A stretch of 34,328 nucleotides of DNA from Sphingomicrobium sp. (GCA_046596505.1 JBKJMA010000211.1:1-34328), one strand, 5' to 3'. Positions 1,533-25,467 are shown, numbered from the stretch's first letter. Notes: a model not told the origin generated them from the sequence alone. Program-made: numbers and translations.

Positions 1533-2032
1533 CGCAAAGCCGGCCAAGCTCCATTCGGCCACTTCCGGTCATTTCGATGTTCATTAGCTGGAACGCCCGG
1601 ATTTGGCCGATTACGGCCCAACTGCTTTTAGCTCGCGGCCAATGGAAGGTGACATTCGAGCTGTGCAACGACGAGTGCCTGCTCCTGATCCAATCCATTA
1701 CATCCGCCGAAACGCAGTTGCCGGGATAACGCGGTCTCTTTGTTTCACTTTTGCCGCAACGTAATTGGGGCCGGATGCAGGTGCCAGGCTTCGCCAACTC
1801 CCATTGCCATTCGCTGGGTCGAGCCGTGCAACCCCGTCTCCGGCTAAAAGCGGCAAATGCGCACCTGGCGGGTGGCCATCTGCAAAGTTGATGCCGAATT
1901 CGCCAGCGCGCATGTGTGTTCGGCGCGGGCGGGGTAGATTGATCCATTTTCATAGCAAAAAGAATGATTTACAAATTGCCAGAAAGCCTTTGTTCGCGCG
2001 CCCACGACTAAGTAACTTAATCGGTCGGAGAG

Positions 2033-2057
2033 GGAACCGAATCGCTTCCGTCCGGTT
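2033..2057 (+). promoter_or_regulatory. Putative EcfG (sigmaT/RpoE2, general stress response) promoter
   Basis: GGAAC-N16-GGTT (= GGAAC-N17-GTT) placed just upstream of RBS GGAGG (2066-2070) and GTG 2077. Confidence 0.6.
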
Positions 2058-2076
2058 GTCGCTCCGGAGGCCCACT

Positions 2077-2931
2077 GTGCTTGAATTTGATTCGTCACCT
2101 GAGCGCTTGACCCAATCTCTTCTTACCCTTGCACGGGACAATTCCCGCAACCCGCAAGTCGATCCGCTTCTGAAATCAATTGGCCCGAGGCGAAGTTTGC
2201 AGATCCATCAGCAGCGCGCCGAGCGCGGCAACCTCGAGCGACTGGCCCGATCGCTCACGGGCGGTTCGGCAGATGGCATAGAACAGGCGACGATCCTTGG
2301 CCTTTGGCGAAGTGCGCGGCATGATCCCGCCAATACTGTGTTATCCGCTTCTAATGGGGTTCGCCTCATTACTAGCGGCTGGGTGGGATGGGTGCGCTAT
2401 GCCGACGACGGCCAGCGACTGATCTTTCTCTTCCTGATGCCCGGCGATTTCATTGTTCCCAGCCTCTTCGAGCCGGGGTGCTGCGACGTGGTCACCCTCA
2501 CGCCATTGCGGACCGTAGATGCCTCGCCACTTATGCAAGAGGGGGCGACCACCACGCCGAAGTCTGCTGCGATGATTGCTCGTAGCGGACGCGACTACCG
2601 CCTGCTGCTCGTCGATCATCTGACGCGATTGACGAATGGCTCAACGACGCGAAGTGTCGCCCACCTCTTAAATGAGTTCCATGAGCGCTCGGTTCGCGCC
2701 GGCTGGTGTGAAAATGGCCGCTTCAGTCTCCCAATCGGCCAACGAGTCCTCGCTCGATCGCTGGGCCGGAGTACCGTCCAGATCAATAAGATCATTAACA
2801 AGTTCCAAGCCGATGGCTTGCTCCGGGTCGGCTATGACTGGGTCGAGGTGCTTCAACCCGACGCGCTCCGCACAGCGGCTGGAATTACCCACAGTGATCG
2901 AGGTCGGTCTCCGGCAAGCGCCGGTCTCTGA
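2077..2931 (+). CDS. Crp/Fnr family transcriptional regulator
   Basis: GGAGG RBS then GTG 2077; cNMP-like beta-roll (LITSGWV..DGQRLIFLFLMPGDF) and C-terminal HTH (FSLPIGQRVLARSLGRSTVQINKIINKFQADGLL..VEVLQPDAL). The ORF-track start at 1765 is probably too long. Confidence 0.8.
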   Translation: MLEFDSSPERLTQSLLTLARDNSRNPQVDPLLKSIGPRRSLQIHQQRAERGNLERLARSLTGGSADGIEQATILGLWRSARHDPANTVLSASNGVRLITSGWVGWVRYADDGQRLIFLFLMPGDFIVPSLFEPGCCDVVTLTPLRTVDASPLMQEGATTTPKSAAMIARSGRDYRLLLVDHLTRLTNGSTTRSVAHLLNEFHERSVRAGWCENGRFSLPIGQRVLARSLGRSTVQINKIINKFQADGLLRVGYDWVEVLQPDALRTAAGITHSDRGRSPASAGL

Positions 2932-3010
2932 CAAGCGTTCGCTGCCTTAACCAACAGTCATTCGAATAGTGTTGCGGCCGCCCGACCGGGACGATTATTC
3001 TCGTCGTTCA

Positions 3011-3739
3011 ATGCGATCCACCATCCCTCCGCTGCGGGCTCCGCCCTTGCGTCAACCCGAGCGCGTCGAGCGCGGAAGCGTGTTGATCGCCATCATCACG
3101 GTCCATCTGCTCGTGTTGCTGTGGCTCTTTACTCGGCCGATAACGGAGCAAGTGCGCCGCGATGCGGGCGGGGATCTCGTCCTTATCTCGATCTCGGACG
3201 GCAAGCCTGCAGCAACCCCGCCAACCGTCCCGAAGCCTCCACCTGCGATCGTGTTACCGGCCCCAGCAATCATCCTTCCAAGCCCGCTTCCCACGCCGAC
3301 TGAGCAACAAAATTGGTCGCAAGCAGGACAGGCTGGTGGTTGTTCGCTTGCGGCCCGCTCAGCCGAGGCCATTGCCAGAGATCCTGCGGCGATGGCTGAA
3401 CTTGCGGCACTTCCGCCCGCTTACCGGACGTCAGCGGATGCGGTGATGCTGTGGAACGGCGAGTGGTTGGCCAGTGCGCCCGGAACGATCGCGCCGCCGC
3501 CAACCCCCTCGCTTCGTCGCGTCGTTGAACAGGTGGTCGCAGATGCCTCCCCCGAATGCCAAACCGCCCCAATGGCCGGCCCGCAATTTCTCGCGATCCC
3601 CGAGCAAAGCCGCAATACAACGCTCGTTATTGGATCGGGGGAATGGCGGTGGTCCGACATTTTGGCGATCTCATCGGCCTGCCTCAAAACCCCGTCAGAT
3701 GCCTGTTTGTCGCCTTTAGCACCGTCTACGACCCCCTGA
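3011..3739 (+). CDS. Hypothetical bitopic membrane protein with Pro-rich periplasmic linker (TonB-like N-terminal architecture)
   Basis: One TM segment containing His (VLIAIITVHLLVLLWLF), then a Pro-rich stretch and a C-terminal domain with 4 Cys. Start uncertain (2969 GTG or 3011 ATG). Confidence 0.65.
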   Translation: MRSTIPPLRAPPLRQPERVERGSVLIAIITVHLLVLLWLFTRPITEQVRRDAGGDLVLISISDGKPAATPPTVPKPPPAIVLPAPAIILPSPLPTPTEQQNWSQAGQAGGCSLAARSAEAIARDPAAMAELAALPPAYRTSADAVMLWNGEWLASAPGTIAPPPTPSLRRVVEQVVADASPECQTAPMAGPQFLAIPEQSRNTTLVIGSGEWRWSDILAISSACLKTPSDACLSPLAPSTTP

Positions 3740-3845
3740 GCGATCAATTATCTTAACGTTAAGCCGAATGTTCGCAGGCGTTCGCAACTTCCCCGCCAAT
3801 CGTCCGTATCTGCTTGAACAACAGACGCGCCACGGGAGGCTCAAT

Positions 3846-5432
3846 ATGACCAGTAGTTTTAGGATCACGACCGCCATTGGGTTGGTAACACTATGTATTG
3901 CCGGCTCGGCAATCGCGTCTAGCCACCGCGAAGCGCCAGGCATCACCAAGATGCCCAAGGTCGACAACACCGACACATATGCCTTCCGCAGCTACGAAAC
4001 CGGTCGCGCCGGATTCACCACACTAATAGCCAATTTCCAGCCGGGCGAATATCCAGGCGCCGGTCCCAACTATTACACGATGGACCCTGACGCGATCTAC
4101 GAGATCCATGTCGACAATGCTGGTGATGCCAAGCAACATCTGACCTTCCAGTTCAAATTCACCAACACGCTCAAGTCCGACACCGGCAAGACCGTGACCG
4201 TCGGCGGCAAGGTGCTTCCGATTGCGCTCAGGGCCATCGGGCCGATCTCGCAGCCGCTCGACGCCAACCTTGGCGAAGATGAGCAATATACGGTCACCCT
4301 CGTCACCGACAGCGCTACCACGGGCACGCGCGCCGCGGTGACCAATGCCAGCGGCGGCGGATCGACCTTCGTCAAGCCGTTCGACAACTCCGGCAACAAG
4401 ACCATCGCCAACTACCCGGCCTATGCCAACCAGTTCATCTACAATGTGAATATCCCGGGTTGCGCGACCGCTGGCCGGGTCTTCGCGGGCCAGCGCCAGG
4501 AAGCCTTCGCGGTCAACCTTGGGCCGATCTTCGATCTCGTCAACTTTGTGCCGATCGAGGGCAGCATTGCCCAGAGCGACGCCAATCAAGAACTGATCGG
4601 AAAGGCCAACGTAACGACCCTTGCGATCGAGGTCCCGACCTCGTGCCTCGTCGGTTCGGGTAATGGCAACATCGGCGTTTGGTCTACTGCCAGCCTGCCA
4701 CAGGCCAAGCTTCACAAGCCCAACCCAACCTATAAGAATCCGACGTTGTCAGGCGGCGCTTATACGCAGGTCTCGCGTCTCGGCATGCCACTCGTCAACG
4801 AGCTCGTTATCGGCCTGCCGCAGAAGGATTTGTTCAACGCGGCAAAGCCGACGCAGGACGGAGCGCTGGCGGATTACGTCACCAACCCCACCTTCCCGGC
4901 AATCCTCGAGGTGCTGTTCGGCGGGGCCGGGATCAGGGCGCCGACCAACTTCCCGCGCAAAGATCTGGTCGCGACCTTCCTGACCGGAATCGAGGGCCTC
5001 AATCAGCTTAAGGCGGTTACGCCTTCTGAGATGATCCGTCTGAATACGACCGTCACCGCCACTCCCGCTGCCAGCCAGAATAGTCTCGGCGTTGCTGGCA
5101 ACGACCTGGCCGGTTTCCCCAATGGCCGTCGTCCCGGTGATGACGTTGTCGATGTCGTTCTCCGGGTCGCAATGGGCCGTCTTTGCTATCCGGTGCCTAT
5201 CGCCGGAACGCAGACTGACCTCAGGCTGTGCGCTCCGACCGACGCTCCCTCGGGTCAGGTGCCATTCACCGACGGCGCTCCGATCAATGCCTTGGGTACT
5301 TACGTCGGTGCCTCCGGTAACACTGGTGCCAATGCGGGTTACGTAAGTCCCCCGGGACCTTATCTGCAGCAGACCTTCCCCTATCTCGCAACCCCGCTGC
5401 GCGGCTCGCCGCGTCCGCAGAACCAGCCATAA
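3846..5432 (+). CDS. DUF4331 domain-containing secreted protein
   Basis: RBS GGGAGG at 3834-3839, ATG 3846; signal peptide ending AIA|SSHREAP; family motifs DNTDTYAF, VFAGQR, QVSRLGMPLVNE, GFPNGRRPGDDVVD, FPYLATP. Confidence 0.88.
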   Translation: MTSSFRITTAIGLVTLCIAGSAIASSHREAPGITKMPKVDNTDTYAFRSYETGRAGFTTLIANFQPGEYPGAGPNYYTMDPDAIYEIHVDNAGDAKQHLTFQFKFTNTLKSDTGKTVTVGGKVLPIALRAIGPISQPLDANLGEDEQYTVTLVTDSATTGTRAAVTNASGGGSTFVKPFDNSGNKTIANYPAYANQFIYNVNIPGCATAGRVFAGQRQEAFAVNLGPIFDLVNFVPIEGSIAQSDANQELIGKANVTTLAIEVPTSCLVGSGNGNIGVWSTASLPQAKLHKPNPTYKNPTLSGGAYTQVSRLGMPLVNELVIGLPQKDLFNAAKPTQDGALADYVTNPTFPAILEVLFGGAGIRAPTNFPRKDLVATFLTGIEGLNQLKAVTPSEMIRLNTTVTATPAASQNSLGVAGNDLAGFPNGRRPGDDVVDVVLRVAMGRLCYPVPIAGTQTDLRLCAPTDAPSGQVPFTDGAPINALGTYVGASGNTGANAGYVSPPGPYLQQTFPYLATPLRGSPRPQNQP

Positions 5433-5447
5433 GCGGGAGGAAAGAAC

Positions 5448-5711
5448 ATGACCAAAAAGCAACTGGTGCAACGCGCATTAATCGGAACGGCCCTCGCGCT
5501 TCCCCTCGCCGCTTGCGGCGGGGGAGGTGGTGGAGGATCCGATTCCGTCATCACCCCGCCGGTGGTCGTCACGACCGCGCAGGAGGATAAGTTCGGCATA
5601 CCGTTCGGGATCGACTTCCGCGCGGCGATGAATTCGGAGCCGGCGAGCGTCAGCGATGGCGACATCGTCCCGGTCACTGCGACCAACGATCCGATCGACA
5701 TCACGCCTTAA
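5448..5711 (+). CDS. Small lipoprotein, DUF4331-associated
   Basis: RBS GGGAGG; lipobox LAAC followed by a poly-Gly tether; 15 bp downstream of DUF4331 and before a shared terminator. Confidence 0.8.
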   Translation: MTKKQLVQRALIGTALALPLAACGGGGGGGSDSVITPPVVVTTAQEDKFGIPFGIDFRAAMNSEPASVSDGDIVPVTATNDPIDITP

Positions 5712-5717
5712 CGAAGT

Positions 5718-5751
5718 AAAGAGCCCGGTGGTCCAGCGATCACCGGGCTTT
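5718..5751. terminator. Probable bidirectional intrinsic terminator
   Basis: AAAG-AGCCCGGTGGTC-cagc-GATCACCGGGCT-TT hairpin between convergent stops at 5711 and 5755. Confidence 0.8.
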
Positions 5752-5754
5752 CGC

Positions 5755-6582
5755 TTACCGACCGCGTTTGGCCGCGTAACCGAAGGTGAGACTGGAGAAA
5801 GTGGTCAGAAAGTCGGCGTTTTGCGATACGATCGGCTTGGTCCAGATGACGTTGACGAGCCATGATCCGACCGGTGGTACCTCGAAGCTTGCTCTTCCCT
5901 TCGCATCCGAACGGGCAATGCGCAGGGGCTTTGCGTCGAATTCGAGACTGGTGAGTTTCACCAATGCGCCGGGCAAGGCGCGGCCTTCAAAGAGGATCTG
6001 GACGGGGAGAATATGATCGGCGCCCAACGAATAGGGATTGCGCAGCGGGACTATCTCGAGCGTGAGGCCGAGCGCACGCGTGGCGAGCGCGTCGTCTCGC
6101 GGCGTCGATCGTCCTACCTGGATGAGAGCTTTTGCGCGCCTGCTATACAGTTCGCGGCCGTTGCGATTCATAGCGCCGCTGCGGGTGCGTGCGTCGATCG
6201 CCGGGGTCAGCCCCTCAACCTTGATATAATCGTTGAAGCGGATCGACGGCAGGTCGCTCGAGGCGTTCGTCGAGACGAGACTGACGATGTGCAACCCCTC
6301 TCGGCGAAAGGTGCGGGTCAGGTGCGGAACTTCGCCTCCCGGCTTAAACAGCGGGCGAACATCGACCGCGCCGCCACGCGCCAGATCGCTGAGCGCCAGC
6401 AGGTGGCCGCCATCGGCTCCCCATTGCTGGCGGAAAGAACCGTGGCCGACCTCGACTACAAACGGAAGCGGATTGCCGGGGCCGGTCTGCCAACTTTGCG
6501 GCTGAAGCCAGAAGTCATGCGCGGATGCGGTGCCGGCAAGCGACAAGCCGATGATCGTTGCAACAAACCCACGCATCTGCAT
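5755..6582 (-). CDS. DUF4198 domain-containing periplasmic protein (NikM/cobalt-nickel uptake-associated family)
   Basis: AAGGA RBS; signal peptide ASA|HDFWL; motifs FNDYIKVEGL, RELYSRRAKALI, LEIVPLRNPY, SDAKGRA, GSWLV, FSSLTF. Start 6582 or 6576. Confidence 0.85.
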   Translation of the reverse strand: MQMRGFVATIIGLSLAGTASAHDFWLQPQSWQTGPGNPLPFVVEVGHGSFRQQWGADGGHLLALSDLARGGAVDVRPLFKPGGEVPHLTRTFRREGLHIVSLVSTNASSDLPSIRFNDYIKVEGLTPAIDARTRSGAMNRNGRELYSRRAKALIQVGRSTPRDDALATRALGLTLEIVPLRNPYSLGADHILPVQILFEGRALPGALVKLTSLEFDAKPLRIARSDAKGRASFEVPPVGSWLVNVIWTKPIVSQNADFLTTFSSLTFGYAAKRGR

Positions 6583-6642
6583 CGTTCCTTATATCGAAGA
6601 CGGTCATTAATAGCGCAAACGATTGCCGGTGTCTCGCTAATA

Positions 6643-7191
6643 ATGATTGCTGGTCCGGCAGTTGCTCATGCCGGAACCGGGCTACCGGGTGGCTTTATTG
6701 CCGGGGTCGGGCATCCTTTGACTGGGCCAGACCATATGTTGGCTATGGTCGCTGTCGGCCTGTGGGGATATTTTCTTGGAAAGCCGCTGATTTACTTGCT
6801 GCCGATGGTCTTCCCGATCATGATGGCGATCGGTGCTGGGGTTGGCATGGCGGGCGTTAGCCTGCCTCCGGTCGAGATCGGCATCGCCATCTCAGTGTGT
6901 GTACTCGGCGCGCTCATCCTCGGCGCAGTCAGGGCGCCGTCATGGGTTGCCTGCGCGGTGGTCGGGTTGTTCGCGCTGTTTCACGGCTATGCCCACGGCA
7001 TCGAACTGCCCTCCGCAGCCGACCCGATCGGTTACAGTCTCGGGTTTGTGCTGGCGACGGGGTCGCTGCACGTCGCTGGGATCGCCATCGGCTCACTCGC
7101 GGCTCTTCCTCGCGGCGAGACGGTCCTACGCGGGCTCGGCGGCGTGGTGTGTGCGATCGGGCTCGGCTTCCTGTGGGTCGCCGCGCGATGA
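6643..7191 (+). CDS. HupE/UreJ family metal (Ni/Co) permease
   Basis: AVA|HAG, GVGHPLTGPDHMLAMVAVGLW, VEIGIAIS, FALFHGYAHGIE, LATGSLHVAG motifs; about 6 TM segments. Start codon uncertain (see findings). Confidence 0.9.
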   Translation: MIAGPAVAHAGTGLPGGFIAGVGHPLTGPDHMLAMVAVGLWGYFLGKPLIYLLPMVFPIMMAIGAGVGMAGVSLPPVEIGIAISVCVLGALILGAVRAPSWVACAVVGLFALFHGYAHGIELPSAADPIGYSLGFVLATGSLHVAGIAIGSLAALPRGETVLRGLGGVVCAIGLGFLWVAAR

Positions 7192-7670
7192 GGGGCGGCT
7201 TCCTGCCTCCCGCGATCCTGATCGCGGCGCTCGGCGTGACGCTCGCCTTCATTCCGCTCCGCCGCGCGCTCATCGCTGCGGGCGTGATGACAATCGTCGC
7301 ATTGGGAACATGGTGGATCGGGCCGCCGGCGCGCTGGATCGAACTGATATTCATTGGCTGTTGGCTAAGCGTCATCGCCACCGCCGCGCTAGTCCATCGC
7401 CCGCTCGAGCTGCCGTCGGCAGCGTTTCTTGCCGCCGCCGCCAATGCCGGGCTGTGGGCCGGCGCGGTGATCGCGGTGGCAGGGAAAGGAAGCGACCTTG
7501 CGATCGCCCTGCCTTGCGTGTTGCTACTCGTCGTCGGTCGCCCGATCGTTGTCCGTGGCTGGGGCATCGGCGTGAAAGTGCTGGCCAGCTGGCTAACCGC
7601 GGTCGCCATCCTCGCGACGATGGTTTCCCTAACCCCGACGCCGGGCTACAAACCCGACCATATGGAATGA
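7188..7670 (+). CDS. Hypothetical integral membrane protein (about 5-6 TM)
   Basis: ATGA overlap with the hupE stop; hydrophobic throughout; ends TPTPGYKPDHME; ATGA overlap with the next gene. Confidence 0.8.
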   Translation: MRGGFLPPAILIAALGVTLAFIPLRRALIAAGVMTIVALGTWWIGPPARWIELIFIGCWLSVIATAALVHRPLELPSAAFLAAAANAGLWAGAVIAVAGKGSDLAIALPCVLLLVVGRPIVVRGWGIGVKVLASWLTAVAILATMVSLTPTPGYKPDHME

Positions 7671-8323
7671 GACGAATGGCCAACCGCACCGATTCCCCGC
7701 TACGATTTGCCTTCTGGTTCGGGCTCGCGTCCTTGTCCTTCGCCGCGCCCGCGCAAGCTCAGGTGATTGAGATCGGCGACGATGGCGCGGCGAGGACATT
7801 TGCCAAACCGACCCGCTTCATTGGCAACGATACCGCTGGCGATCTCGCGGCGACCGTCACCATCCGCCCCCCGGAAGTTGATCGCTTCGAGCGTGCCGCG
7901 AAGGCCGAGGGGCTCGACGTCCATCTGTTGCGCGCGGTAGCCTGGACCGAATCGCGCGGGCGCCAGAATGCCGTCAGTCCCAAGGGCGCGATGGGCGTGA
8001 TGCAGTTGATGCCGTCGACCGCTGCCGAAATGGGGATCAACCCGTACGACCCCGACGCCAACCTCCACGGCGGCGCGCGCTATCTCGCTCGGCAGCTGTC
8101 GCGTTTTCAGAGCGTACCCCTCGCGCTCGCCGCCTATAATGCGGGCCCGGGCGCGGTGCTTCGCTGGGGCGGGATTCCGCCCTATGCCGAGACGCAAGCC
8201 TATGTCGCGCAGATCATGTCACGGTATCAGGTCGCGCCCGCCCCGATCGTCCTCCGAAAAATTGCCGCAACGCCGATCGCCCGCCGGGTCGATCTCATGC
8301 TCATCGAGGTGCCGTCCCTGTGA
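7667..8323 (+). CDS. virB1: Lytic transglycosylase (SLT), VirB1-like
   Basis: Signal peptide AQA|QVI; SLT motifs WTESRG, SPKGAMGVMQLMP, N..GGARYL, ALAAYNAG, ETQAYV; sits directly before virB2. Confidence 0.85.
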   Translation: MRRMANRTDSPLRFAFWFGLASLSFAAPAQAQVIEIGDDGAARTFAKPTRFIGNDTAGDLAATVTIRPPEVDRFERAAKAEGLDVHLLRAVAWTESRGRQNAVSPKGAMGVMQLMPSTAAEMGINPYDPDANLHGGARYLARQLSRFQSVPLALAAYNAGPGAVLRWGGIPPYAETQAYVAQIMSRYQVAPAPIVLRKIAATPIARRVDLMLIEVPSL

Positions 8324-8619
8324 AGAAACTCATTCCCGCCGCCGTCCTGACGCTGTTCGCCGCGGCCCGTGCCGACGCACAATATGCCGCGCCTGACCCC
8401 GCCGGTTCAGGCCCGATCATCGGCGCGGTCGACTGGTTGCAAGGGACATTGCTCGGCAATGTCGCGACCGCCGTGGCGGTTATCGCGGTCGCCGCGGTCG
8501 GGTTCATGATGCTGACCGGAAGGATAAACTGGAAATATGGCGCAACCGTCGTCGTCGGGCTGTTCATCCTGTTCGGCGCGGCCTCCATTGTCGGCGGCAT
8601 TCGCTCGGTCGCCGGCTAG
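8320..8619 (+). CDS. virB2: T4SS major pilin, TrbC/VirB2 family
   Basis: 99 aa; signal peptide plus two hydrophobic helices (LLGNVATAVAVIAVAAVGFMMLTGR, VVVGLFILFGAASIV); GTGA overlap with virB1. Confidence 0.9.
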   Translation: MKKLIPAAVLTLFAAARADAQYAAPDPAGSGPIIGAVDWLQGTLLGNVATAVAVIAVAAVGFMMLTGRINWKYGATVVVGLFILFGAASIVGGIRSVAG

Positions 8620-8892
8620 ATGGCCGACCCGCTGTTCCGCGCATTGGCCCGGCCGCAGATGGTGGCGGGCGTGACCTACCCGTTCTTCGTCATGAACGGG
8701 ATCGTCGCGGCGGAGCTGTTCCTGATCTTCAAGTCCCCGCTCGCCCTGCTTCCCGCGCTAGTCATCCACGCGCTCGGTTATGCCGCGCACCTGCGTGACC
8801 CGCACGTCATGGCGCTATGGATGACCCGCCTCCGCCGCACCCCGCGCGTCGCCAATTACAAGTTACGGGGCGCCAATGTTTACTGCCCGTAA
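8620..8892 (+). CDS. virB3: T4SS VirB3
   Basis: DPLFRALARPQMVAGV motif, two TM segments, RDPH; located between virB2 and virB4. Confidence 0.9.
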   Translation: MADPLFRALARPQMVAGVTYPFFVMNGIVAAELFLIFKSPLALLPALVIHALGYAAHLRDPHVMALWMTRLRRTPRVANYKLRGANVYCP

Positions 8893-11239
8893 CCGCGCCG
8901 CCCGGAAGGAAGTCGCGGCCGGGGTTCACCTGCCCTACCTCGCGCAGGTTGACGACCACACCCTGCTGACCCGCAACGGCCAGTTGATGCAGGTTATCAA
9001 GCTCGACGGCTTGCCGTTCGAGACGATCGGCCGCGCCGACCTCGACTCGCGGCTCGCGGTGCGCGACGCGATGTTCCAGTCGATCGGCTCGTCGCGCTTC
9101 GCGATCGTCCACCATGTCGTGCGCCGTGCGGTCGAGCCGCGTTTCGAGGGCCAGTTCGGCGACCCTTTCAGCGCGAGCCTCGATCAAGCCTGGCGCGATC
9201 GACTCGCTACCCGCCGATTGTTCGTCAACGACCTCTACTTGACGCTGATCGTACGCCCGTTGCGCGGTCGCGCCGGGTGGGCGGAAAAATTGCTGGGGGC
9301 CGCGGGAAGCCGCTCGGACCAAGGCGAGCGCGGGGCCGATTTGCGGCTATTATCACAGGCGCGCGAGCAGCTGATGGCGGCGCTCGAGCCTTATGGCCCG
9401 ACCTTGCTGACGGCCTATGACCTCCCGAGTGGGCTCGCGTCGCAGCAACTGGAGTTTCTCGCGACGCTGTTCAACGGCACCGCCACGCCGATGCTGCTTC
9501 CGACCGGCGACCTCGGTCACGCCGTCCCGCGCCGCACGATCAGCTTCGGCGCCGACACGATCGAGCTCGGCCCGGTCGATGGCGAGCCCCCCGAATTCGC
9601 GGCGATCCTGTCGGCCAAGGATTATCCCAGCACGACCTCGGCGGGGATGCTCGACGACATTTATCGCCTGCCGTTCGCGATGCAGGTGACCCAGAGTTTC
9701 GCCTTCGTCGACCGCGGCCCGGCGCAGGAGCGGATGGACCTCGCACTCCGCCGGATGCGATCGGCCGACGATGCGGCAGTGTCGCTGCGCTCGGAACTCT
9801 CCGCTGCGAAGGACGATGTAGCCGCCGGCCGCGCCGGGTTCGGTGAGCATCATTTGTCGATCCAGATCAACGCCGACAGCCCCGCCAGCCTCGACCAGGC
9901 GACCGGCGAAGTGCAGGCCGCGCTCGCCGAAACCGGCTTCTCGGTCGTCCGGGAGGAACTCGGCCTGGAAGCCGCCTTCTGGGCGCAGTTCCCCGGCAAT
10001 TTCGACTATATCGCCCGCCGCGCACTCGTCTCGACCGCCAATTTCGCGGGCTTTGCCAGCGCGCATAATTTCCCCGTGGGACGCCCCGACGGCAATCATT
10101 GGGGCGACGCCGTCACCCTGTTCGAAACCACCGCCGCCGGACCCTATTTCTTCAACTTTCACCGCGGCGATCTCGGCAATTTCACGGTCATCGGCCCGTC
10201 GGGATCGGGCAAGACCGTGGTCCTCGCCTTCCTTCTGGCGCAGGCGCGGCGGTTCGACCCGCGCATCGTGTTCTTCGACAAGGATCGCGGCGCCGAGATC
10301 TTCCTTCGCGCGATCGGCGGCACGTATGAGGCGCTGCGCCCCGGCGAGCCGACGCGGATGAACCCGCTCGCGCTGCCCGATACCCCGGTTAACCGCCGCT
10401 TTCTCGCCGAATGGCTCGCCCGGCTTGCCGTCGGCGAGGGCCAGCCGCTCAATGTCGAGGAGAGTGCCTGGATCGTCGAGGCGATCGACACCGCCATGGC
10501 GGGCCCGCGCGAACTGCGCCGGTTGCGTCATGTCGCCGAATTGTTTCGCGGGCGAGGGCGCGCCTCGGCAGGCGATCTCGCCGCGCGGCTCGCGCCGTGG
10601 CATTCGGCGGGCGAGTTCGCCTGGTTGTTCGACAATGAGGAGGACCGGCTCGACCTGGCGACTCCGACGCTCGGGTTCGACATGACCGCGGTCCTCGACC
10701 AGCCCGCGCTGCGCGCGCCGACGATGTTGTACCTCTTCCACCGCGTGGAGGAGCGGCTCGACGGCAAGCCGACGATCATCGTCGTCGACGAAGGCTGGAA
10801 GGCGCTCGACGACGAGGTGTTCGTGGCGCGCATTCGCGACTGGGAGAAGACCATCCGCAAGCGCGGCGGGATCGTCGGTTTCGCCACCCAATCCGCCTCC
10901 GATGCGCTGCAGAGCCGGATCGCCAGCGCGATCATCGAGCAGGCGGGGACACAGGTCTTCATGGCCAATTCGAGCGCGCAAGCGTCCGACTATATCGACG
11001 GCTTCGGGTTGACCGAGACGGAATATGATATCGTCCGCTCGATGCCCGAAACCGCGCGCGCCTTCCTCGTCAAGCATGGCACCGACAGCGTCGTGGTGCG
11101 GCTCAACCTCGGTTCTGAACCGCAGCTGCTGACAGTGCTGTCGGGTCGCGAGACGACGGTGCGCCTGCTCGACAAGCTTCGCGCCGAGGTCGGCGATGAT
11201 CCCGCCGACTGGCTGCCCAGACTGGTTGCGGCGGCATGA
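8876..11239 (+). CDS. virB4: T4SS ATPase VirB4
   Basis: 787 aa; HLPY, AAFWAQFPGN, PYFFNFH, Walker A GPSGSGKT, FFDKDRG, Walker B IIVVDEGW, KTIRKRGG, FATQS. Confidence 0.97.
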   Translation: MFTARNRAARKEVAAGVHLPYLAQVDDHTLLTRNGQLMQVIKLDGLPFETIGRADLDSRLAVRDAMFQSIGSSRFAIVHHVVRRAVEPRFEGQFGDPFSASLDQAWRDRLATRRLFVNDLYLTLIVRPLRGRAGWAEKLLGAAGSRSDQGERGADLRLLSQAREQLMAALEPYGPTLLTAYDLPSGLASQQLEFLATLFNGTATPMLLPTGDLGHAVPRRTISFGADTIELGPVDGEPPEFAAILSAKDYPSTTSAGMLDDIYRLPFAMQVTQSFAFVDRGPAQERMDLALRRMRSADDAAVSLRSELSAAKDDVAAGRAGFGEHHLSIQINADSPASLDQATGEVQAALAETGFSVVREELGLEAAFWAQFPGNFDYIARRALVSTANFAGFASAHNFPVGRPDGNHWGDAVTLFETTAAGPYFFNFHRGDLGNFTVIGPSGSGKTVVLAFLLAQARRFDPRIVFFDKDRGAEIFLRAIGGTYEALRPGEPTRMNPLALPDTPVNRRFLAEWLARLAVGEGQPLNVEESAWIVEAIDTAMAGPRELRRLRHVAELFRGRGRASAGDLAARLAPWHSAGEFAWLFDNEEDRLDLATPTLGFDMTAVLDQPALRAPTMLYLFHRVEERLDGKPTIIVVDEGWKALDDEVFVARIRDWEKTIRKRGGIVGFATQSASDALQSRIASAIIEQAGTQVFMANSSAQASDYIDGFGLTETEYDIVRSMPETARAFLVKHGTDSVVVRLNLGSEPQLLTVLSGRETTVRLLDKLRAEVGDDPADWLPRLVAAA

Positions 11240-12429
11240 ACCCCGACCTGTGTGCCCCCGCCGGAGCTCCCGGCCTCGTCGCCGACCTGCTCGCCAATAC
11301 CGACTGCCAGGCGTCGAGCCTCGTCGAGCGCGGCTATTCCGCGCTGTCTACCCCGGGCGCCGCAACCGCGGCTGTGCTGACCTCGCTAATGGTCATTGCC
11401 GTCGCACTTTACGGATACCGGCTGCTACTCGGCAAAGGCCTCGCGCTTAGCGATGTCACCGGTCTCGCCATCCGCCTCGGGGTCGTCCTCCTCCTCGCCG
11501 CCTCATGGTCGTCGTTCCAGGCACTTGCGTATGACGCCTTCGCCCGTGCCCCGTCGCGCATTGCGAGCGAGCTGGTGGTCGCAATCGATTCGCCCGCCCC
11601 GCTCGACGGAGTGCAATCGGCGCTAGACCGGATCGAGCAGGGCAGTGTTGGCTGGCGGACGCGCGCAGGGATCGCCTCGCCGCTGGTCGGCGGCGCTCCG
11701 ACTGCGGCGATGGCGCTCAACGTCTCTTCCTTCCTGCTGACCCTATCGACCGTGGGGCTTCTGGTCGTCTCGCGGATCTTGCTCGCCCTGCTGTTGGCGA
11801 TCACGCCGGTAATGGCGGGTTTCCTGCTGTTCGACGCGACGCGCGGGTTGCTCGAGGGGTGGCTCCGGACGCTCACCGGCGCGGCGCTCGTCCCGCTGTT
11901 CGTTCTGATCCTGTGCGCGATTGAACTCGCGATCCTCTCACCGCTGCTCGACCGAATGCTCGCCGATCAGGCTAGCGGCCGGTTCGAGCTAGACACCGTC
12001 ACCCCGGTCGCGCTGGTCGTGATCGTGTTCAGCATCGCAATCGTTGCTTCTGCCCGCGCCGCAACCACCATCGCGCGCGGCATTCGGCTCCCGCGCAAGG
12101 GCTTCAGCGGCAGCGCTGCGGTTGCCAATGCGGCTCCCTCCGCGATCGCCGCTGAGCGTCCCCTGTTGCTATCCGGCCCCCGCTCGGCCGCCGTAACCCC
12201 TGTGGCGCGCGCGCTCGAAAGCGCGGCACGACGCGACGCCGAAGAAAGCACCCAGCGTACGGTCGCGGCGGCCTCCCGCGGCTCGCGTGAGATCCACAGC
12301 AGCAGCACCACCATTGCGGGCGCCACAAGCGCGTCGAATCCGTCCGAAGCGGGCTCGCGACCTTATCTACCACCACCGCGTACCCGTCTTCCGCGCGCTT
12401 CTCGCGCCGCAGCCCGCAGGGATATATGA
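11236..12429 (+). CDS. virB6: T4SS inner-membrane protein VirB6/TrbL
   Basis: Polytopic; LLALLLAITPVMAGFLLFDATRGLLEGW motif typical of VirB6; ATGA overlaps at both ends. Confidence 0.9.
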   Translation: MNPDLCAPAGAPGLVADLLANTDCQASSLVERGYSALSTPGAATAAVLTSLMVIAVALYGYRLLLGKGLALSDVTGLAIRLGVVLLLAASWSSFQALAYDAFARAPSRIASELVVAIDSPAPLDGVQSALDRIEQGSVGWRTRAGIASPLVGGAPTAAMALNVSSFLLTLSTVGLLVVSRILLALLLAITPVMAGFLLFDATRGLLEGWLRTLTGAALVPLFVLILCAIELAILSPLLDRMLADQASGRFELDTVTPVALVVIVFSIAIVASARAATTIARGIRLPRKGFSGSAAVANAAPSAIAAERPLLLSGPRSAAVTPVARALESAARRDAEESTQRTVAAASRGSREIHSSSTTIAGATSASNPSEAGSRPYLPPPRTRLPRASRAAARRDI

Positions 12430-13097
12430 CCGAACACGATAAATATTACGCCGCAGCGCAAGGCTGGGCCGACGAGCGCGTCGAGTCCGAGCGCAAGGCG
12501 CGCAAACTCGCCTGGACTGTAGCCGGGGTTGCCGGGGCAATCGCATTGGTGCTCGCCCTCGCGCTGGCGATGCTGGTCCCGCTGAAGACCGTCCAGCCCT
12601 ATGTCCTCACGGTCGACAAGCAGACTGGCGCGGTCGAGGTCGCGACCACCGTCGCCAACGGCCGGCTGACCCAGAACGAAGCGGTCATCCAGGCGCAGCT
12701 CGCCAACTATGTCCGCGTTCGTGAAACCTTCGACGCGAGCGACCTCGCCGCCAATTATCGCCGGGTCCAGCTGTTGTCCGGCCCCGACGTGCGCACCGCC
12801 TACATCGCCTCGATGGCCGCGGCCAACCCGGCCAGCCCGCTCCACACCCTGTCGCCCGGGGACACGCTCGCGGTGCGGATCAAGAGCGTGTCGCTGACCG
12901 CGGCGGGAACGGCGCTGGTCCGCTATGACCTCGACCGTACTGTTGCGGGTGGACGCGGGGTCAGCTCGACACCCTATGTCAGCGCCATCACCTACGGCTT
13001 CAGCGACAAGCCGCTGCGGGCAGCCGACCGGTTCGAGAATCCACTCGGGTTCGAGGTCACTCGCTATCGCCGCGATGCCGAAGGGATGACCCAGTGA
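12426..13097 (+). CDS. virB8: T4SS VirB8
   Basis: One TM segment, then PLKTVQPYVLTVDKQTG, YVRVRE, and RFENPLGFEVTRYR at the C-terminus. Confidence 0.95.
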   Translation: MTEHDKYYAAAQGWADERVESERKARKLAWTVAGVAGAIALVLALALAMLVPLKTVQPYVLTVDKQTGAVEVATTVANGRLTQNEAVIQAQLANYVRVRETFDASDLAANYRRVQLLSGPDVRTAYIASMAAANPASPLHTLSPGDTLAVRIKSVSLTAAGTALVRYDLDRTVAGGRGVSSTPYVSAITYGFSDKPLRAADRFENPLGFEVTRYRRDAEGMTQ

Positions 13098-13786
13098 AGC
13101 GTATCCTGCTGCTTGCCCTGAGCCTATTCGCGCTCACCGCCGAAACCCTACCCCGCCCCGGTCCGGTCGATCCGCACATCCAGCGCGTGCAGTTCGATCC
13201 CGAGCAGGTCGTCGCGCTGCACGGCGCGCTCGGCTGGCAGGTCATGATCGAATTCGGCGGTGACGAGCGGATCGAGAATGTCTCGATTGGCGACAGCCTG
13301 GCGTGGCAGGTGACCCCGAACAAGCGAGCCCGGATGCTGTTCCTCAAGCCCCTGCTGCGCAATGGCGCGACCAATATGACCGTCGTTACCAGCCTGCGAC
13401 GTTATGCCTTTTCGCTGTCGACCGGACCGCGCGAACGACGCACGCCATGGGTGCTGCACTTCGACTATCCCCCGCCGCCGATTGTCGAAACCCTCCCCGA
13501 GCCCCCACCCCCGCCGCCGGTCAAGCTCGACTTCAGCTACTCCCGCTTGGGTGACCCTGCAGTCATGCCGGCCCGGGTATGGAACGATGGCCGCCAGACC
13601 TATTTCGAGTTCGCCGAGGATACGCCTTTCCCCGCGATCTTCGCCTGGGGCCCGGGCAAGAACGACGAATCACTGGTGAATGTCGCAACCCGCGGCCGAA
13701 TTCAGGTCGTCCAGCAGATGGGCCAGCGCTTCATCCTCCGCTCCGGCACCCACTTCGCGACCGTCACAAGGACATATCAGCGATGA
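13094..13786 (+). CDS. virB9: T4SS core-complex VirB9/TrbG
   Basis: Signal peptide; DPHIQRVQF, IGDSLAWQV, LFLKP, TNMTVVT..RRY, VWNDGRQTYFEF, PAIF, LVN, FILRSG. Confidence 0.93.
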   Translation: MKRILLLALSLFALTAETLPRPGPVDPHIQRVQFDPEQVVALHGALGWQVMIEFGGDERIENVSIGDSLAWQVTPNKRARMLFLKPLLRNGATNMTVVTSLRRYAFSLSTGPRERRTPWVLHFDYPPPPIVETLPEPPPPPPVKLDFSYSRLGDPAVMPARVWNDGRQTYFEFAEDTPFPAIFAWGPGKNDESLVNVATRGRIQVVQQMGQRFILRSGTHFATVTRTYQR

Positions 13787-15015
13787 CCGAGCTTCCCCCT
13801 GTCAAGATTCCCCGCGTCGCGCGCAAGGCATCGCGAACTAAAATCGCGCCCTTCGCACTCGGGCTTGGTGTGATTGGGACAGCGGTGTTCGCCAGCCTCG
13901 CCAGTCACCGCGCCGCGCGCGAGGAGCAGGCCACGGCCCTGCCCCCGCTGCGCACGACCACGATCACCGCGCCCGCGCCTCCCCCGCCAGCGATCCTTGC
14001 TACCCCGACGACCATCGTCCCGATCCCGATCCCGACGACGCAACCGATTCCGGTCATCGCCGTGCCGATGCAGTCTCAGCGAACTTACGGTCTCATCCCA
14101 GTGGTTCGCGCTCCACGCTCCGACAATGGTGCCGCTGATCGCGCGCGCGCGCGGATCGCGGCCCCAGCACTGATTGTCGATCTGCCGCCCGCTCGGACCG
14201 GCGGCGATGGTCCTCGCTTGGGCCAGACATCGTTCAACGAAAGCGCGATGCCCCTTGCGGCGACATTGTTTCAAACCGCGTCGCTTCAGGACCCGACGGG
14301 TGCCGCGATCGTCGCGGCCGGCCCACCTGCCATCCCCGAAACGATCGTGCCCATCGCGTCGATCGATCCCGTCGCGCGCGATCTTAATTCGAACGAGCGT
14401 TTTTCCAGCCGAGCTGGCAACAAGGAGACGGAGGTCGCGCGGGCCCAGCGCCTACCCAACCAGGATTTGCTCGTTGTCCAGGGCACGATCATCGGCGCGG
14501 TGATGGAGACCGCCCTCAACTCGGACCTGCCCGGTTTTGCGCGCGCCATCGTCACCCGCGACGTCCTGTCGTTCGACGGCAGCCAGGTGCTGATCCCCGC
14601 CGGAAGCCACGTCATCGGCGAATATAATTCGGGCGTGGCGCAAGGCGCGAGCCGGATCTTCATCGTCTGGAACCGACTCATCCGGCCCGATGGCGTCTCG
14701 GTTTCGCTCGCCTCACCAGCGGTCGATGACCTTGGTCGCGGCGGACTAGGCGGCAAGGTCAACCGCCATTTCCTCCAGCGGTTCGGCGGCGCGATCCTGC
14801 TGTCAGTGCTGACCGGGGGCCTCAACGCTTTCACCCAGTCTCAGACGCGCGGGTCGACCGTGATCGTCAGCAGCTCGAACGAAGCGACGTCGCTTGCCGG
14901 CCAAGCATCGAAGGGCAGCGACATCGCTCCGACCATCAAGACCCGGCAGGGTGCAACAGTGCGCATCTTCGTTGCGCGCGACCTCGATTTCTCCGCCGTC
15001 GGTCCGACCATTTGA
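13783..15015 (+). CDS. virB10: T4SS core-complex VirB10/TrbI
   Basis: ATG 13783 (ATGA overlap with virB9); TM segment, Pro-rich linker, QGTIIGAVMETALNSDLPG, VLIPAGS..IGEY, RIFIVWNRL, DDLGRGG, RFGGAILLS, IFVARDLDFS. Confidence 0.95.
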   Translation: MTELPPVKIPRVARKASRTKIAPFALGLGVIGTAVFASLASHRAAREEQATALPPLRTTTITAPAPPPPAILATPTTIVPIPIPTTQPIPVIAVPMQSQRTYGLIPVVRAPRSDNGAADRARARIAAPALIVDLPPARTGGDGPRLGQTSFNESAMPLAATLFQTASLQDPTGAAIVAAGPPAIPETIVPIASIDPVARDLNSNERFSSRAGNKETEVARAQRLPNQDLLVVQGTIIGAVMETALNSDLPGFARAIVTRDVLSFDGSQVLIPAGSHVIGEYNSGVAQGASRIFIVWNRLIRPDGVSVSLASPAVDDLGRGGLGGKVNRHFLQRFGGAILLSVLTGGLNAFTQSQTRGSTVIVSSSNEATSLAGQASKGSDIAPTIKTRQGATVRIFVARDLDFSAVGPTI

Positions 15016-15022
15016 CCCCGTT

Positions 15023-16006
15023 ATGAACAGCCAGCCGCTCCTGTTCCTCGATGCCTTCCTTGCGCCGCTGGCCGCGTCGCTGGCACGCGACGATGTCACC
15101 GATGTCTACATCAACCGCCCCGGCGAGCTGTGGCTCGAAACTTCCCACGGGATCGAACGCCACGAGGATCCGCGGCTCGACGACGACGCGCTGTGGCGCC
15201 TGTCGCGCCAGATCGCCGCTGCCACCGACCAGGGCATCAGCCGCGAGCATCCGCTTCTCGCTGCCACCCTGCCGAGCGGCGCGCGGGTCCAGGTCTGTGC
15301 GCCCCCAGCGACCCGTGGCCACGTCTGCGTCGCGGTGCGCAAGCATGTCGTCCCCGACCTGACCCTCGACGACTATCTTACTGCCGGCGCCTTCGACCGG
15401 GTCGGTGAAGCGGCGCTGTCACAGGCCGCGACCGACCTCGCGTTGAAAGCCCAGCTCGCGTCGGGCGACGTGCGCGGCTTCCTCGCCGCAGCGGTTCGTG
15501 CACGCAAGTCGATCCTCATTTCGGGAGGCACCGCAACCGGCAAGACTACGCTGCTCAATGCGCTACTCAAGGAAGCGCCGGCAGACGAGAGGATCGTGCT
15601 GATTGAAGACACCCCCGAAATTCAGCTGACCCACGCCAACGCGGTCGGGCTGGTCGCGGTACGCGGGCGGCTTGGCGAAGCGTCGGTCAGCGCCGCCGAC
15701 CTGCTCGAGGCGGCGCTTCGGCTTCGCCCCGACCGGATCATCATGGGCGAAATCCGCGGCGTGGAGGCCCTGAGTTTCCTGCGCGCGGTCAACACCGGTC
15801 ACCCGGGATCGATCACCACCATCCATGCCAGTTCGCCCGACGGCGCGCTTGAGCAGCTCGCATTGATCGCGGCGCAGGCCGGGACCGACCTCGGCCGCGA
15901 GGAACTGAAAGCCTACATGCGCTCGGTGCTCGACATCATCATCCAGCTCGGCCGGTCGGACGGCCAGCGGCTGGTCAGCGATATTGTCTTTCTGGCTAAG
16001 GAGTAG
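15023..16006 (+). CDS. virB11: T4SS P-type ATPase VirB11
   Basis: DVYINRPG, Walker A GGTATGKTT, IEDTPE, LRLRPDRIIMGEIRG, NTGHPGSITTIHA. Confidence 0.96.
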   Translation: MNSQPLLFLDAFLAPLAASLARDDVTDVYINRPGELWLETSHGIERHEDPRLDDDALWRLSRQIAAATDQGISREHPLLAATLPSGARVQVCAPPATRGHVCVAVRKHVVPDLTLDDYLTAGAFDRVGEAALSQAATDLALKAQLASGDVRGFLAAAVRARKSILISGGTATGKTTLLNALLKEAPADERIVLIEDTPEIQLTHANAVGLVAVRGRLGEASVSAADLLEAALRLRPDRIIMGEIRGVEALSFLRAVNTGHPGSITTIHASSPDGALEQLALIAAQAGTDLGREELKAYMRSVLDIIIQLGRSDGQRLVSDIVFLAKE

Positions 16007-16454: not shown

Positions 16455-16457
16455 GAA

Positions 16458-25458: not shown

Positions 25459-25467
25459 GCAGGGAAT

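What the first reader, a model, noticed from the sequence alone, without database searches (positions are those of the whole stretch)
3846..16006. Hypothesis: Ptl-like two-step export of the DUF4331 protein by the coupling-protein-less T4SS
Known: the Bordetella Ptl T4SS lacks VirD4 and VirB5 and exports Sec-translocated pertussis toxin from the periplasm, with substrate genes directly upstream of the ptl genes. Seen here: a VirD4/VirB5-less T4SS with an upstream 528-aa Sec-signal protein of unknown function (DUF4331), a partner lipoprotein and a periplasmic DUF4198 protein. Inference: DUF4331 may be matured or metal-loaded in the periplasm and then exported or surface-displayed by this T4SS. 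An alternative is an uptake role like Helicobacter ComB, which also lacks VirD4 and VirB5.
Basis: inference. Interest (0 to 1): 0.8.

Follow-up and report, generated by a model that had tools for sequence, protein, structure and literature searches.

The report
Type IV machine replaces type II
This bacterium carries a stripped-down type IV secretion machine next to an unstudied, likely metal-binding exported protein, and relatives place the same protein next to a type II machine instead, so the type IV machine likely pushes proteins from the periplasm across the outer membrane, a route best known from whooping-cough toxin.

Summary
Confirmed. The window holds an intact virB1-2-3-4-6-8-9-10-11 operon with no VirD4 or VirB5 found, beside a conserved cassette: a membrane protein, Sec-signal DUF4331, a small lipoprotein, DUF4198, HupE/UreJ and a second membrane protein. 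The linkage is real: virB lies beside 40 of 60 close DUF4331 loci, in at least seven gene orders, and 8 of 9 close VirB4 loci carry DUF4331.

The best support for two-step export comes from relatives. The DUF4331-lipoprotein pair sits beside a type II (T2SS) gsp cluster in 8 loci. The same T4SS family occupies the T2SS slot behind an ElpS-like lipoprotein and TonB receptor, and its sister clade neighbours signal-peptide Rhs proteins. T2SS and this T4SS rarely share a genome in two orders (odds ratios 0.07, 0.10).

Limits: no export is shown. DUF4331 is not in the virB operon here. The genome pattern is not DUF4331-specific, and the tree-controlled test was inconclusive. It works like Ptl but is not Ptl (VirB1 present); ComB fails (VirB11 present). 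The scan saw parts of this before on other DNA (e1-5450256, e1-5269644).

The parts
1765..2931 (+). Crp/Fnr-family regulator (true start probably downstream of 1765); found only in the closest relatives; likely local regulator
   Evidence: PF13545 E 5.9e-10; matched in 6 of 80 DUF4331 loci
2969..3739 (+). hypA: membrane-anchored, proline-rich protein with a conserved ~130-aa domain; travels with DUF4331
   Evidence: no Pfam; 43 of 60 close DUF4331 loci; model pLDDT 84.9, best Z 2.8
3846..5432 (+). DUF4331 protein, 528 aa, signal-like N-terminus, predicted mature end Ser-Ser-His; proposed cargo
   Evidence: PF14224 E 1.7e-134; His3 kept in 94% of aligned rows with a residue there; AlphaFold pLDDT 94.5
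5448..5711 (+). 87-aa lipoprotein (LAAC, Gly linker, conserved C-terminal ~45 aa); proposed tether of DUF4331
   Evidence: same family in 56 loci, beside T4SS and beside T2SS (L003)
5712..5760 (.). strong hairpin between the lipoprotein gene and the convergent DUF4198 gene; likely terminator
   Evidence: -27.2 kcal/mol, z -5.5, 0 of 200 shuffles as stable
5755..6582 (-). DUF4198 periplasmic protein with predicted His1 after the signal (A-S-A/H); family shown to bind nickel
   Evidence: PF10670 E 2.3e-29; motif; PMC12537917 passages
6643..7191 (+). HupE/UreJ-family permease (start uncertain, may lie further upstream); first gene of the virB operon
   Evidence: PF04955 E 1.4e-50; overlaps next gene by 4 nt
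7188..7670 (+). 160-aa membrane protein of no known family, 5 nt before virB1
   Evidence: no Pfam; 35 of 60 close loci
7676..8323 (+). VirB1 lytic transglycosylase
   Evidence: PF01464; ES motif
8320..8619 (+). VirB2 pilin, single copy, highly conserved
   Evidence: PF04956; mature core more conserved than VirB4 in 31 of 32 linked loci
8620..8892 (+). VirB3
   Evidence: PF05101
8876..11239 (+). VirB4 ATPase
   Evidence: TIGR00929 725.6 bits, cut-off 643.1; Walker A and B
11236..12429 (+). VirB6
   Evidence: PF04610
12426..13097 (+). VirB8
   Evidence: PF04335
13094..13786 (+). VirB9
   Evidence: PF03524
13783..15015 (+). VirB10
   Evidence: NF038091 220.1 bits, cut-off 220; nearest solved relative R388 TrwE, E 4e-40
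15023..16006 (+). VirB11 ATPase
   Evidence: TIGR02788 344.5 bits, cut-off 249.95; Walker A, Asp box, Walker B, His box

Best explanation
The window encodes an intact VirB machine with no coupling protein or pilus-tip protein found, which likely works as an outer-membrane exit for proteins already in the periplasm (the job of a type II system), and its likely cargo here is the DUF4331 protein. Inferred steps: Sec carries DUF4331 into the periplasm; cleavage would expose a Ser-Ser-His tip predicted to bind nickel or copper; it folds, possibly held by the small lipoprotein; VirB4 and VirB11 would drive a short VirB2 filament that pushes or releases it through the VirB9/VirB10 channel. DUF4198 and HupE/UreJ would handle the same metal in the periplasm and inner membrane, so the module is most likely a metal-capture system with a surface or released component. 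Shown: gene content, linkage, interchange with T2SS clusters. Not shown: export, binding, metal.
For: (1) Linkage: virB beside 40 of 60 DUF4331 loci at 56% identity or more (one is a deletion remnant), 0 of 20 more distant ones; at least seven gene orders; in 19 of 38 loci DUF4331-lipoprotein directly precedes virB1. Reciprocal: 8 of 9 close VirB4 loci with 5 kb or more upstream carry DUF4331. (2) The DUF4331-small partner pair sits beside gsp genes in L003, L075, L103 and on 5 of 5 Rhodobacterales plasmids opened, 3 of them with DUF4198 closing the cluster. (3) An ElpS-like lipoprotein plus TonB receptor is followed by gsp in 14 of 20 Caulobacterales loci and lies beside virB1 in 2; C. crescentus ElpS release needs the T2SS (PMC2996285). 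In 148 family genomes it lies within 12 kb of virB4 in 54 (none with GspF), of gspF in 46, and none lacks both machines; the pairing falls in three VirB4 clades. (4) T4SS versus GspF: both 23, T4 only 99, T2 only 98, neither 30 of 250; both 7, 12, 86, 15 of 120 in a second order. (5) The sister VirB4 clade neighbours Rhs proteins (35 of 57 rows); 10 of 14 complete ones have signal-like N-termini against 8 of 142 VirB4 and 2 of 95 VirB11 controls. (6) No PF02534 VirD4 in 24 of 39 linked genomes, including single-contig G164; no VirB5 in 4 of 4, positive control rang; this VirB4 type is on 1 of 72,556 plasmids. (7) In L102 the virB operon is deleted to remnants, the cassette stays, and that genome has GspF.
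Against: No experiment shows export. In the window DUF4331 is cut off from virB by a hairpin and an antisense gene; the operon starts with hupE. Most genomes with the machine lack full-length DUF4331 (8 against 122 of 250), and VirB4s without it lie in or beside DUF4331 clades (L023, L160, L024-L027, L048, L049). 7 DUF4331 loci with long flanks have no virB. That 13 of 14 T4SS-less DUF4331 genomes have GspF is no more than the family baseline, 98 of 128 (p 0.13). The independent-pairs test was inconclusive: 6 pairs, 2 with, 1 against, 3 tied. 85 of the 99 T4-only family genomes belong to one score group; without it the odds ratio is 0.39, and the Rhs-like group shows no exclusion (15 of 35). 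11 of 36 linked genomes also have a GspF-like gene; L102's genome has a second VirB4. ElpS reaches the surface without the T2SS, which only releases it, so the shared job may be shedding. The own genome is 84% complete and holds a PilB/GspE-like fragment.
Confidence: 0.58

Rival explanations
1. The machine serves the metal module without exporting DUF4331: it forms a short surface filament or envelope channel that helps uptake or adhesion, while DUF4331 stays periplasmic as a metal buffer or enzyme.
For: The virB operon here starts with hupE and the membrane protein, not DUF4331. TonB receptors, NikR and Nramp recur near the cassette. VirD4-less systems can make adhesive pili (PMC12857230).
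Against: It does not explain why a complete T2SS takes the same slot. One highly conserved pilin and no VirB5 is unlike the variable pilins of Trw.
Confidence: 0.17
2. The family is a periplasm-to-outside exporter, but DUF4331 is only a co-regulated neighbour; the real cargo lies elsewhere and the linkage is inherited.
For: The cassette has lower GC (0.59-0.62) than virB (0.65-0.69). The machine persists without DUF4331 and the reverse. The genome-level pattern is not DUF4331-specific.
Against: The linkage survives at least seven rearrangements and occurs in at least four VirB4 clades; DUF4331-lipoprotein abuts virB1 in 19 of 38 loci.
Confidence: 0.13
3. ComB-like DNA uptake: the machine pulls DNA into the periplasm for food or transformation.
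For: It lacks VirD4 and VirB5 like ComB. It neighbours phosphate-related genes in relatives (PhoX, PhoD, polyphosphate kinase). PMC4919336 assumed a DNA role for the core Erythrobacter system.
Against: ComB lacks VirB11, which is intact here. VirB10 scores 83 against a cut-off of 300 on the ComB10 model. Interchange with T2SS and signal-bearing Rhs neighbours point outward.
Confidence: 0.06
4. A conjugation channel or its remnant that borrows a VirD4 from another element.
For: 15 of 39 linked genomes have some PF02534 match; nearest plasmid relatives (45%) are canonical systems with VirD4.
Against: 24 of 39 have none; of 170 loci with this VirB4 type only 1 shows VirB5 and 2 show VirD4 within the fetched flanks; 1 of 72,556 plasmids, typed non-mobilizable; all genes are intact.
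Confidence: 0.04

Closest known systems
Bordetella pertussis Ptl system (PMC8402538 passages; PMC12857230 section 20)
   Same: VirB-type machine without VirD4 and VirB5, with VirB4 and VirB11; candidate cargo has a Sec-type signal and is encoded upstream.
   Different: Ptl lacks VirB1 and has VirB7 (PtlI); here VirB1 is present and no VirB7 was found. Ptl shares an operon with its one cargo; here DUF4331 is outside the virB operon, and the family pairs with three unrelated candidate cargos in free-living bacteria. Export is proven for Ptl, not here.
Caulobacter crescentus ElpS - CC0171 - gspC-N type II module (PMC2996285 passages, section 9)
   Same: Relatives of this T4SS sit beside an ElpS-like lipoprotein and TonB receptor, in some in the very position of gspC; DUF4331 alternates between T2SS and T4SS.
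   Different: The exit machine is of type IV; the ElpS-like gene was not found in this genome; identity with CC0170 rests on synteny, size and lipobox only.
Helicobacter pylori ComB (PMC12857230)
   Same: No VirD4, no VirB5.
   Different: ComB lacks VirB11 and imports DNA; VirB11 is intact here.
DUF4198 and anglerase-HupE/UreJ nickel capture proteins (PMC12537917 passages)
   Same: His1 DUF4198 and a HupE/UreJ permease are in the cassette.
   Different: The passages seen name no secretion machine and no DUF4331; HupE here carries no anglerase domain by length (about 183 aa).
Conjugative P-type VirB/D4 systems (R388 Trw; Hyphomicrobiales plasmids)
   Same: Homologous VirB1-4, 6, 8-11 in the same order.
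   Different: Those carry VirB5 and VirD4; this family is chromosomal and lacks them.

Membership tests
Type IVA (VirB-type) T4SS | VirB4, VirB10 and VirB11 above curated cut-offs, in an operon with VirB2, 3, 6, 8, 9 | tested here: met
Ptl | no VirD4 coupling protein | tested here: met
   own genome (84% complete); 24 of 39 linked genomes
Ptl | no VirB5 | tested here: met
   no room between virB4 and virB6 in 68 of 72 loci; with positive control G161
Ptl | no VirB1 | tested here: not met
   VirB1 present, PF01464; Ptl lacks it
Ptl | VirB7 lipoprotein (PtlI) present | tested here: inconclusive
   no lipobox ORF in 3700-16600 other than the DUF4331 partner; small VirB7 genes are easily missed and the genome was not searched
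Ptl | cargo carries a Sec signal | tested here: met
   signal-like N-terminus in 83 of 89 DUF4331 ORFs by a simple rule; no SignalP run
Ptl | cargo genes in one operon directly upstream of the machine | tested here: not met
   hairpin and antisense DUF4198 intervene in the window; met in 19 of 38 relatives
Ptl | export of folded cargo depends on the machine | not testable with these tools
   needs mutants
Ptl | orthology with ptl genes | not tested
   no Ptl sequence was placed on the VirB4 trees
ComB | no VirB11 | tested here: not met
   TIGR02788 above cut-off; ComB lacks it
ComB | ComB10-type VirB10 | tested here: not met
   NF038092 83 bits, cut-off 300
Conjugative VirB/D4 | VirD4 and VirB5 with the operon | tested here: not met
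   canonical control L058 has both
Conjugative VirB/D4 | cognate relaxase | not tested
   no relaxase search was run
Bartonella Trw adhesive pili | multiple variable VirB2 and VirB5 copies | tested here: not met
   one VirB2, median 83% core identity across 32 linked loci; no VirB5
ElpS (for the lipoprotein in related loci) | ~50-kDa lipoprotein upstream of a TonB receptor and gspC-N | tested here: met
ElpS (for the lipoprotein in related loci) | sequence homology to CC0170 | not tested
   no named ElpS sequence was returned
ATCUN-type (Xaa-Xaa-His) metal tip; motif name recalled and taken from earlier scan notes | His third after signal cleavage | tested here: met
   A-I-A/S-S-H in the window; H3 kept at 0.94 in alignment A1; cleavage site predicted
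ATCUN-type (Xaa-Xaa-His) metal tip; motif name recalled and taken from earlier scan notes | binds Cu(II) or Ni(II) | not testable with these tools
   needs purified protein

The most novel reading that the evidence does not exclude
A widespread chromosomal family of minimal type IV machines (no VirD4, VirB5 or VirB7, some also without VirB8 or VirB1) is a general terminal branch for periplasmic proteins in Sphingomonadales and Caulobacterales. It has repeatedly replaced the type II system and moves a metal-capture protein, a phosphate-starvation lipoprotein or Rhs toxins depending on the clade. Ptl-type export would then be common in free-living bacteria, not a pathogen oddity.
Probability: 0.5. 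Interest if true: 0.88.

Novelty: new variant of a known kind. Interest (0 to 1): 0.74.

Why it matters
How a type IV machine takes a folded protein from the periplasm is called an open question in a 2025 review (PMC12857230), and the known cases are pathogens (Bordetella, Brucella). A harmless, culturable, smaller version with named candidate cargos would make the question directly testable. It would also change the reading of a T4SS found in 122 of 250 sampled genomes of this family, which at least one paper took for a DNA-transfer device (PMC4919336), and give DUF4331, which has 0 papers in the searched library, a location and a likely metal link.

Tried and rejected
Complex prediction of DUF4331 with the lipoprotein: no answer, score 0.09, mark 0.32. 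Sequencing runs: no RNA holder listed; no reads were laid. DUF4331: no solved relative by sequence, no Foldseek match at E 0.001, best VIA Z 7.4 to Sas6, then Ig- and DOMON-like sandwiches at Z under 5.5, within the range of common arrangements. hypA: only unnamed Atlas clusters, best Z 2.8. Promoter and terminator scan: no excess over shuffles. ElpS could not be named by sequence: hits are 'hypothetical' with PF28492, which the held Pfam lacks. Independent-pairs test inconclusive; L102 was coded there and as T2SS-only, but one search shows a second VirB4, so the corrected table of 63 genomes is both 15, T4 only 34, T2 only 13, neither 1. Rejected: that the 87-aa lipoprotein is VirB7 (it follows DUF4331 also beside T2SS clusters); that the own-genome PF10412 hit is a coupling protein (HerA-like); that the two own-genome secretins are GspD (139.5 and 135.1 bits, cut-off 351; no GspF, K, J, G, L, M found). 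Literature: searches listed no paper describing this system; only listings and abstract starts were seen except for the papers named. Duplicate loci were dropped before trees (L001, L002, L068, L108, L110, L118; also L079, L086).
Full report
OBSERVATION. The window's closest named relatives are Sphingomonas genomes (DUF4331 92% identical). It holds, in order: a Crp-like gene, hypA (2969-3739), DUF4331 (3846-5432), an 87-aa lipoprotein, DUF4198 on the minus strand, a HupE/UreJ permease, a 160-aa membrane protein and virB1-2-3-4-6-8-9-10-11 ending at 16006. VirB4, VirB10 and VirB11 pass curated cut-offs and keep their motifs. From hupE to virB11 the genes overlap or lie within 7 nt, which reads as one operon. 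A hairpin (z -5.5) and the antisense DUF4198 gene separate DUF4331-lipoprotein from it. In the own genome (84% complete) no VirD4 or VirB5 was found by profile (the VirB5 control did not ring) or by the VirD4 and VirB5 of a canonical locus, L058. No GspF, K, J, G, L or M was found either; a PilB/GspE-like fragment lies on a 2.6-kb contig.

LINKAGE. Of 80 loci fetched with DUF4331 (the best 80 of 169), 60 are 56% identical or more. virB genes lie beside 40 of these (one, L102, a remnant); 5 are negative with 8 kb on both sides, 2 with long downstream flank only, 13 too short; 0 of the 20 more distant loci have virB. The order varies: machine downstream, upstream, inverted, with hupE before or after; I count at least seven arrangements, and in 19 of 38 loci DUF4331-lipoprotein directly precedes virB1. 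The reciprocal search, with VirB4 (best 80 of 226), gave 21 loci at 72% or more; 9 have 5 kb upstream and 8 of them carry DUF4331 (some are near-copies). The window's VirB4 clade has 39 rows, 30 with DUF4331, and DUF4331-linked VirB4s fall in at least four clades. The machine is far commoner than the cassette: in 250 family genomes 122 have this VirB4 type and 8 have full-length DUF4331, 3 of them linked, 4 not, 1 on a contig too short to tell. Another 34 have tandem short DUF4331 genes, a different module; none of the 12 fetched lies beside virB.

NOT A CONJUGATION SYSTEM. 24 of 39 linked genomes have no PF02534 match, among them the single-contig G164; PF10412 gave only short weak hits in 5 tested. 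VirB5 was not found in 4 of 4, while the control genome rang. Of 170 loci with VirB4 at 50% or more, 1 shows VirB5 and 2 VirD4 within the fetched flanks. One of 72,556 plasmids has this VirB4 type above 60%; the next is 45.7%; that plasmid is typed non-mobilizable and has an Rhs gene beside the operon.

WHAT POINTS TO EXPORT FROM THE PERIPLASM. First, DUF4331 changes machines. The DUF4331-small partner pair abuts gsp genes in L003, L075 and L103 and on 5 of 5 Rhodobacterales plasmids opened, 3 with DUF4198 at the far end; a sixth record, from Pseudoalteromonas, has no machine within 9 kb. On the DUF4331 tree the alphaproteobacterial T2SS-adjacent rows branch outside a 63-row clade (support 98) holding all 41 T4SS-adjacent rows. 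In L102 the virB operon is deleted to about 0.5 kb of remnants, the cassette is kept, and the genome has GspF but also a second VirB4.

Second, the machine takes the slot of a known T2SS. A ~500-aa lipoprotein and TonB receptor are followed by gsp genes in 14 of 20 Caulobacterales loci, lie beside virB1 in 2 and near neither in 4. This is the layout of C. crescentus elpS-cc0171-gspC-N, where release of ElpS needs the T2SS although its surface display does not (PMC2996285, passages and section 9). The identification rests on synteny, size and lipobox. In the family, for the 148 of 169 genomes whose places were listed, the gene lies within 12 kb of virB4 in 54 (all without GspF), of gspF in 46, of neither in 48; none of the 148 lacks both machines. 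In 120 Caulobacterales genomes 10 of 89 carriers lack GspF, 9 of these have the T4SS, and 8 have it within about 7 kb (read by hand). The pairing appears in three VirB4 clades.

Third, the two machines rarely share a genome: both 23, T4 only 99, T2 only 98, neither 30 of 250 (odds ratio 0.07); 7, 12, 86, 15 of 120 (0.10). Fourth, the sister clade (57 rows, 35 beside Rhs genes) neighbours large Rhs proteins, 10 of 14 complete ones with signal-like N-termini by a simple rule that flags 83 of 89 DUF4331, 8 of 142 VirB4 and 2 of 95 VirB11 ORFs. A T2SS takes folded proteins from the periplasm (established knowledge), so a machine that swaps with it and lacks the cytoplasmic receptor VirD4 most simply does the same.

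AGAINST. Kin are not independent. 85 of the 99 T4-only genomes are one score group, probably the core Erythrobacter system of PMC4919336 (inferred); without it the odds ratio is 0.39, p 0.03. The Rhs-like group shows no exclusion (15 of 35). Among DUF4331 genomes without the T4SS, 13 of 14 have GspF, not above baseline (p 0.13), and independent pairs on the DUF4331 tree were inconclusive. 11 of 36 linked genomes also have a GspF-like gene, 3 above cut-off. GspF and VirB4 stand in for whole machines, and many genomes are incomplete. The case for DUF4331 in particular rests on adjacency, not on genome counts.

THE CARGO. AlphaFold gives a confident model (pLDDT 94.5) with a beta-sandwich core and no clear solved match. 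The predicted mature end Ser-Ser-His is conserved; reading it as a copper/nickel tip comes from recalled knowledge and earlier scan notes. DUF4198 proteins bind nickel through His1 and HupE/UreJ proteins are nickel permeases (PMC12537917, passages); His1 is predicted here. NikR, TonB receptors and Nramp recur nearby in relatives. No metal binding is shown.

COMPARISON. It works like Ptl but is not filed as Ptl: VirB1 is present, no VirB7 was found, and the cargo is outside the operon here (PMC8402538, passages). ComB lacks VirB11 and Trw has many variable pilins (PMC12857230, passages and section 20); here VirB11 is intact and the single pilin core is more conserved than VirB4 in 31 of 32 loci. 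PMC4919336 (passages) noted a vertically inherited Erythrobacter T4SS beside a TonB receptor and discussed DNA transfer. PMC9241875 and PMC2529317 (passages) added nothing on this system. DUF4331 has 0 papers in the library; searches listed none on this family. Subscription journals are not searched and no supplements were opened; Table S3 of PMC4919336 may bear on gene content. Earlier scan notes on other DNA reported the same pairing (e1-5450256, marked 'part of it fell', reason not shown) and the ElpS slot (e1-5269644); they are not independent support.

VERDICT. A real, conserved, apparently undescribed module. Two-step export of DUF4331 by a T2SS-substituting T4SS is the best reading (0.58); new variant of a known kind; interest 0.74.

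Noticed in passing
L051-L057, L059-L062, L227, L253, L254, L260, L263, L264, L266-L270: A widespread form of the same T4SS also lacks VirB8 (virB6 runs straight into virB9), usually thought essential.
   Followed up: partly
L028, L033-L037, L039, L041-L046, L248: The sister clade lacks VirB1, often has a second VirB2 after virB11, and sits beside variable Rhs proteins with signal-like N-termini and Calx-beta/Rhs proteins: a candidate Sec-plus-T4SS route for polymorphic toxins.
   Followed up: partly
L023:9637-14490: In the window's own VirB4 clade one locus has PhoX and PhoD phosphatases and a TatA-like gene upstream of virB1 in place of the DUF4331 cassette.
   Followed up: partly
L004, L005, L006, L010, L069, L072, L089, L120, L129, L147-L149: A DUF4394-autotransporter gene often lies directly upstream of hypA-DUF4331.
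   Followed up: no
L011-L022: 34 of 250 family genomes carry tandem short DUF4331 genes, in those fetched followed by a TPR protein and often a HupE_UreJ_2 fusion, with no virB nearby.
   Followed up: partly
L119:8106-9650: The alphaproteobacterial cassette (NikR, TonB receptor, hypA, DUF4331, DUF4198, HupE) occurs in a record labelled Verrucomicrobiota: transfer or mis-binning.
   Followed up: no
window 2001-7000: GC is 0.59-0.62 over the cassette against 0.65-0.69 over virB, suggesting separate origins.
   Followed up: no
window 21921-26004: Carotenoid genes: lycopene cyclase, phytoene desaturase-like oxidoreductase, phytoene synthase, hydroxylase.
   Followed up: no
window 29072-30208: ScyD/ScyE-family secreted protein (NF033206 above cut-off) in a lower-GC stretch.
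   Followed up: no
window 33268-33341: tRNA-Gly (GCC) called on the minus strand inside the long ORF 32415-33722; one of the two calls may be spurious.
   Followed up: no
window 15996-17396: FKBP-type isomerase and an outer-membrane beta-barrel protein with a proline-rich tail converge on virB11; neither was matched in the related loci.
   Followed up: partly
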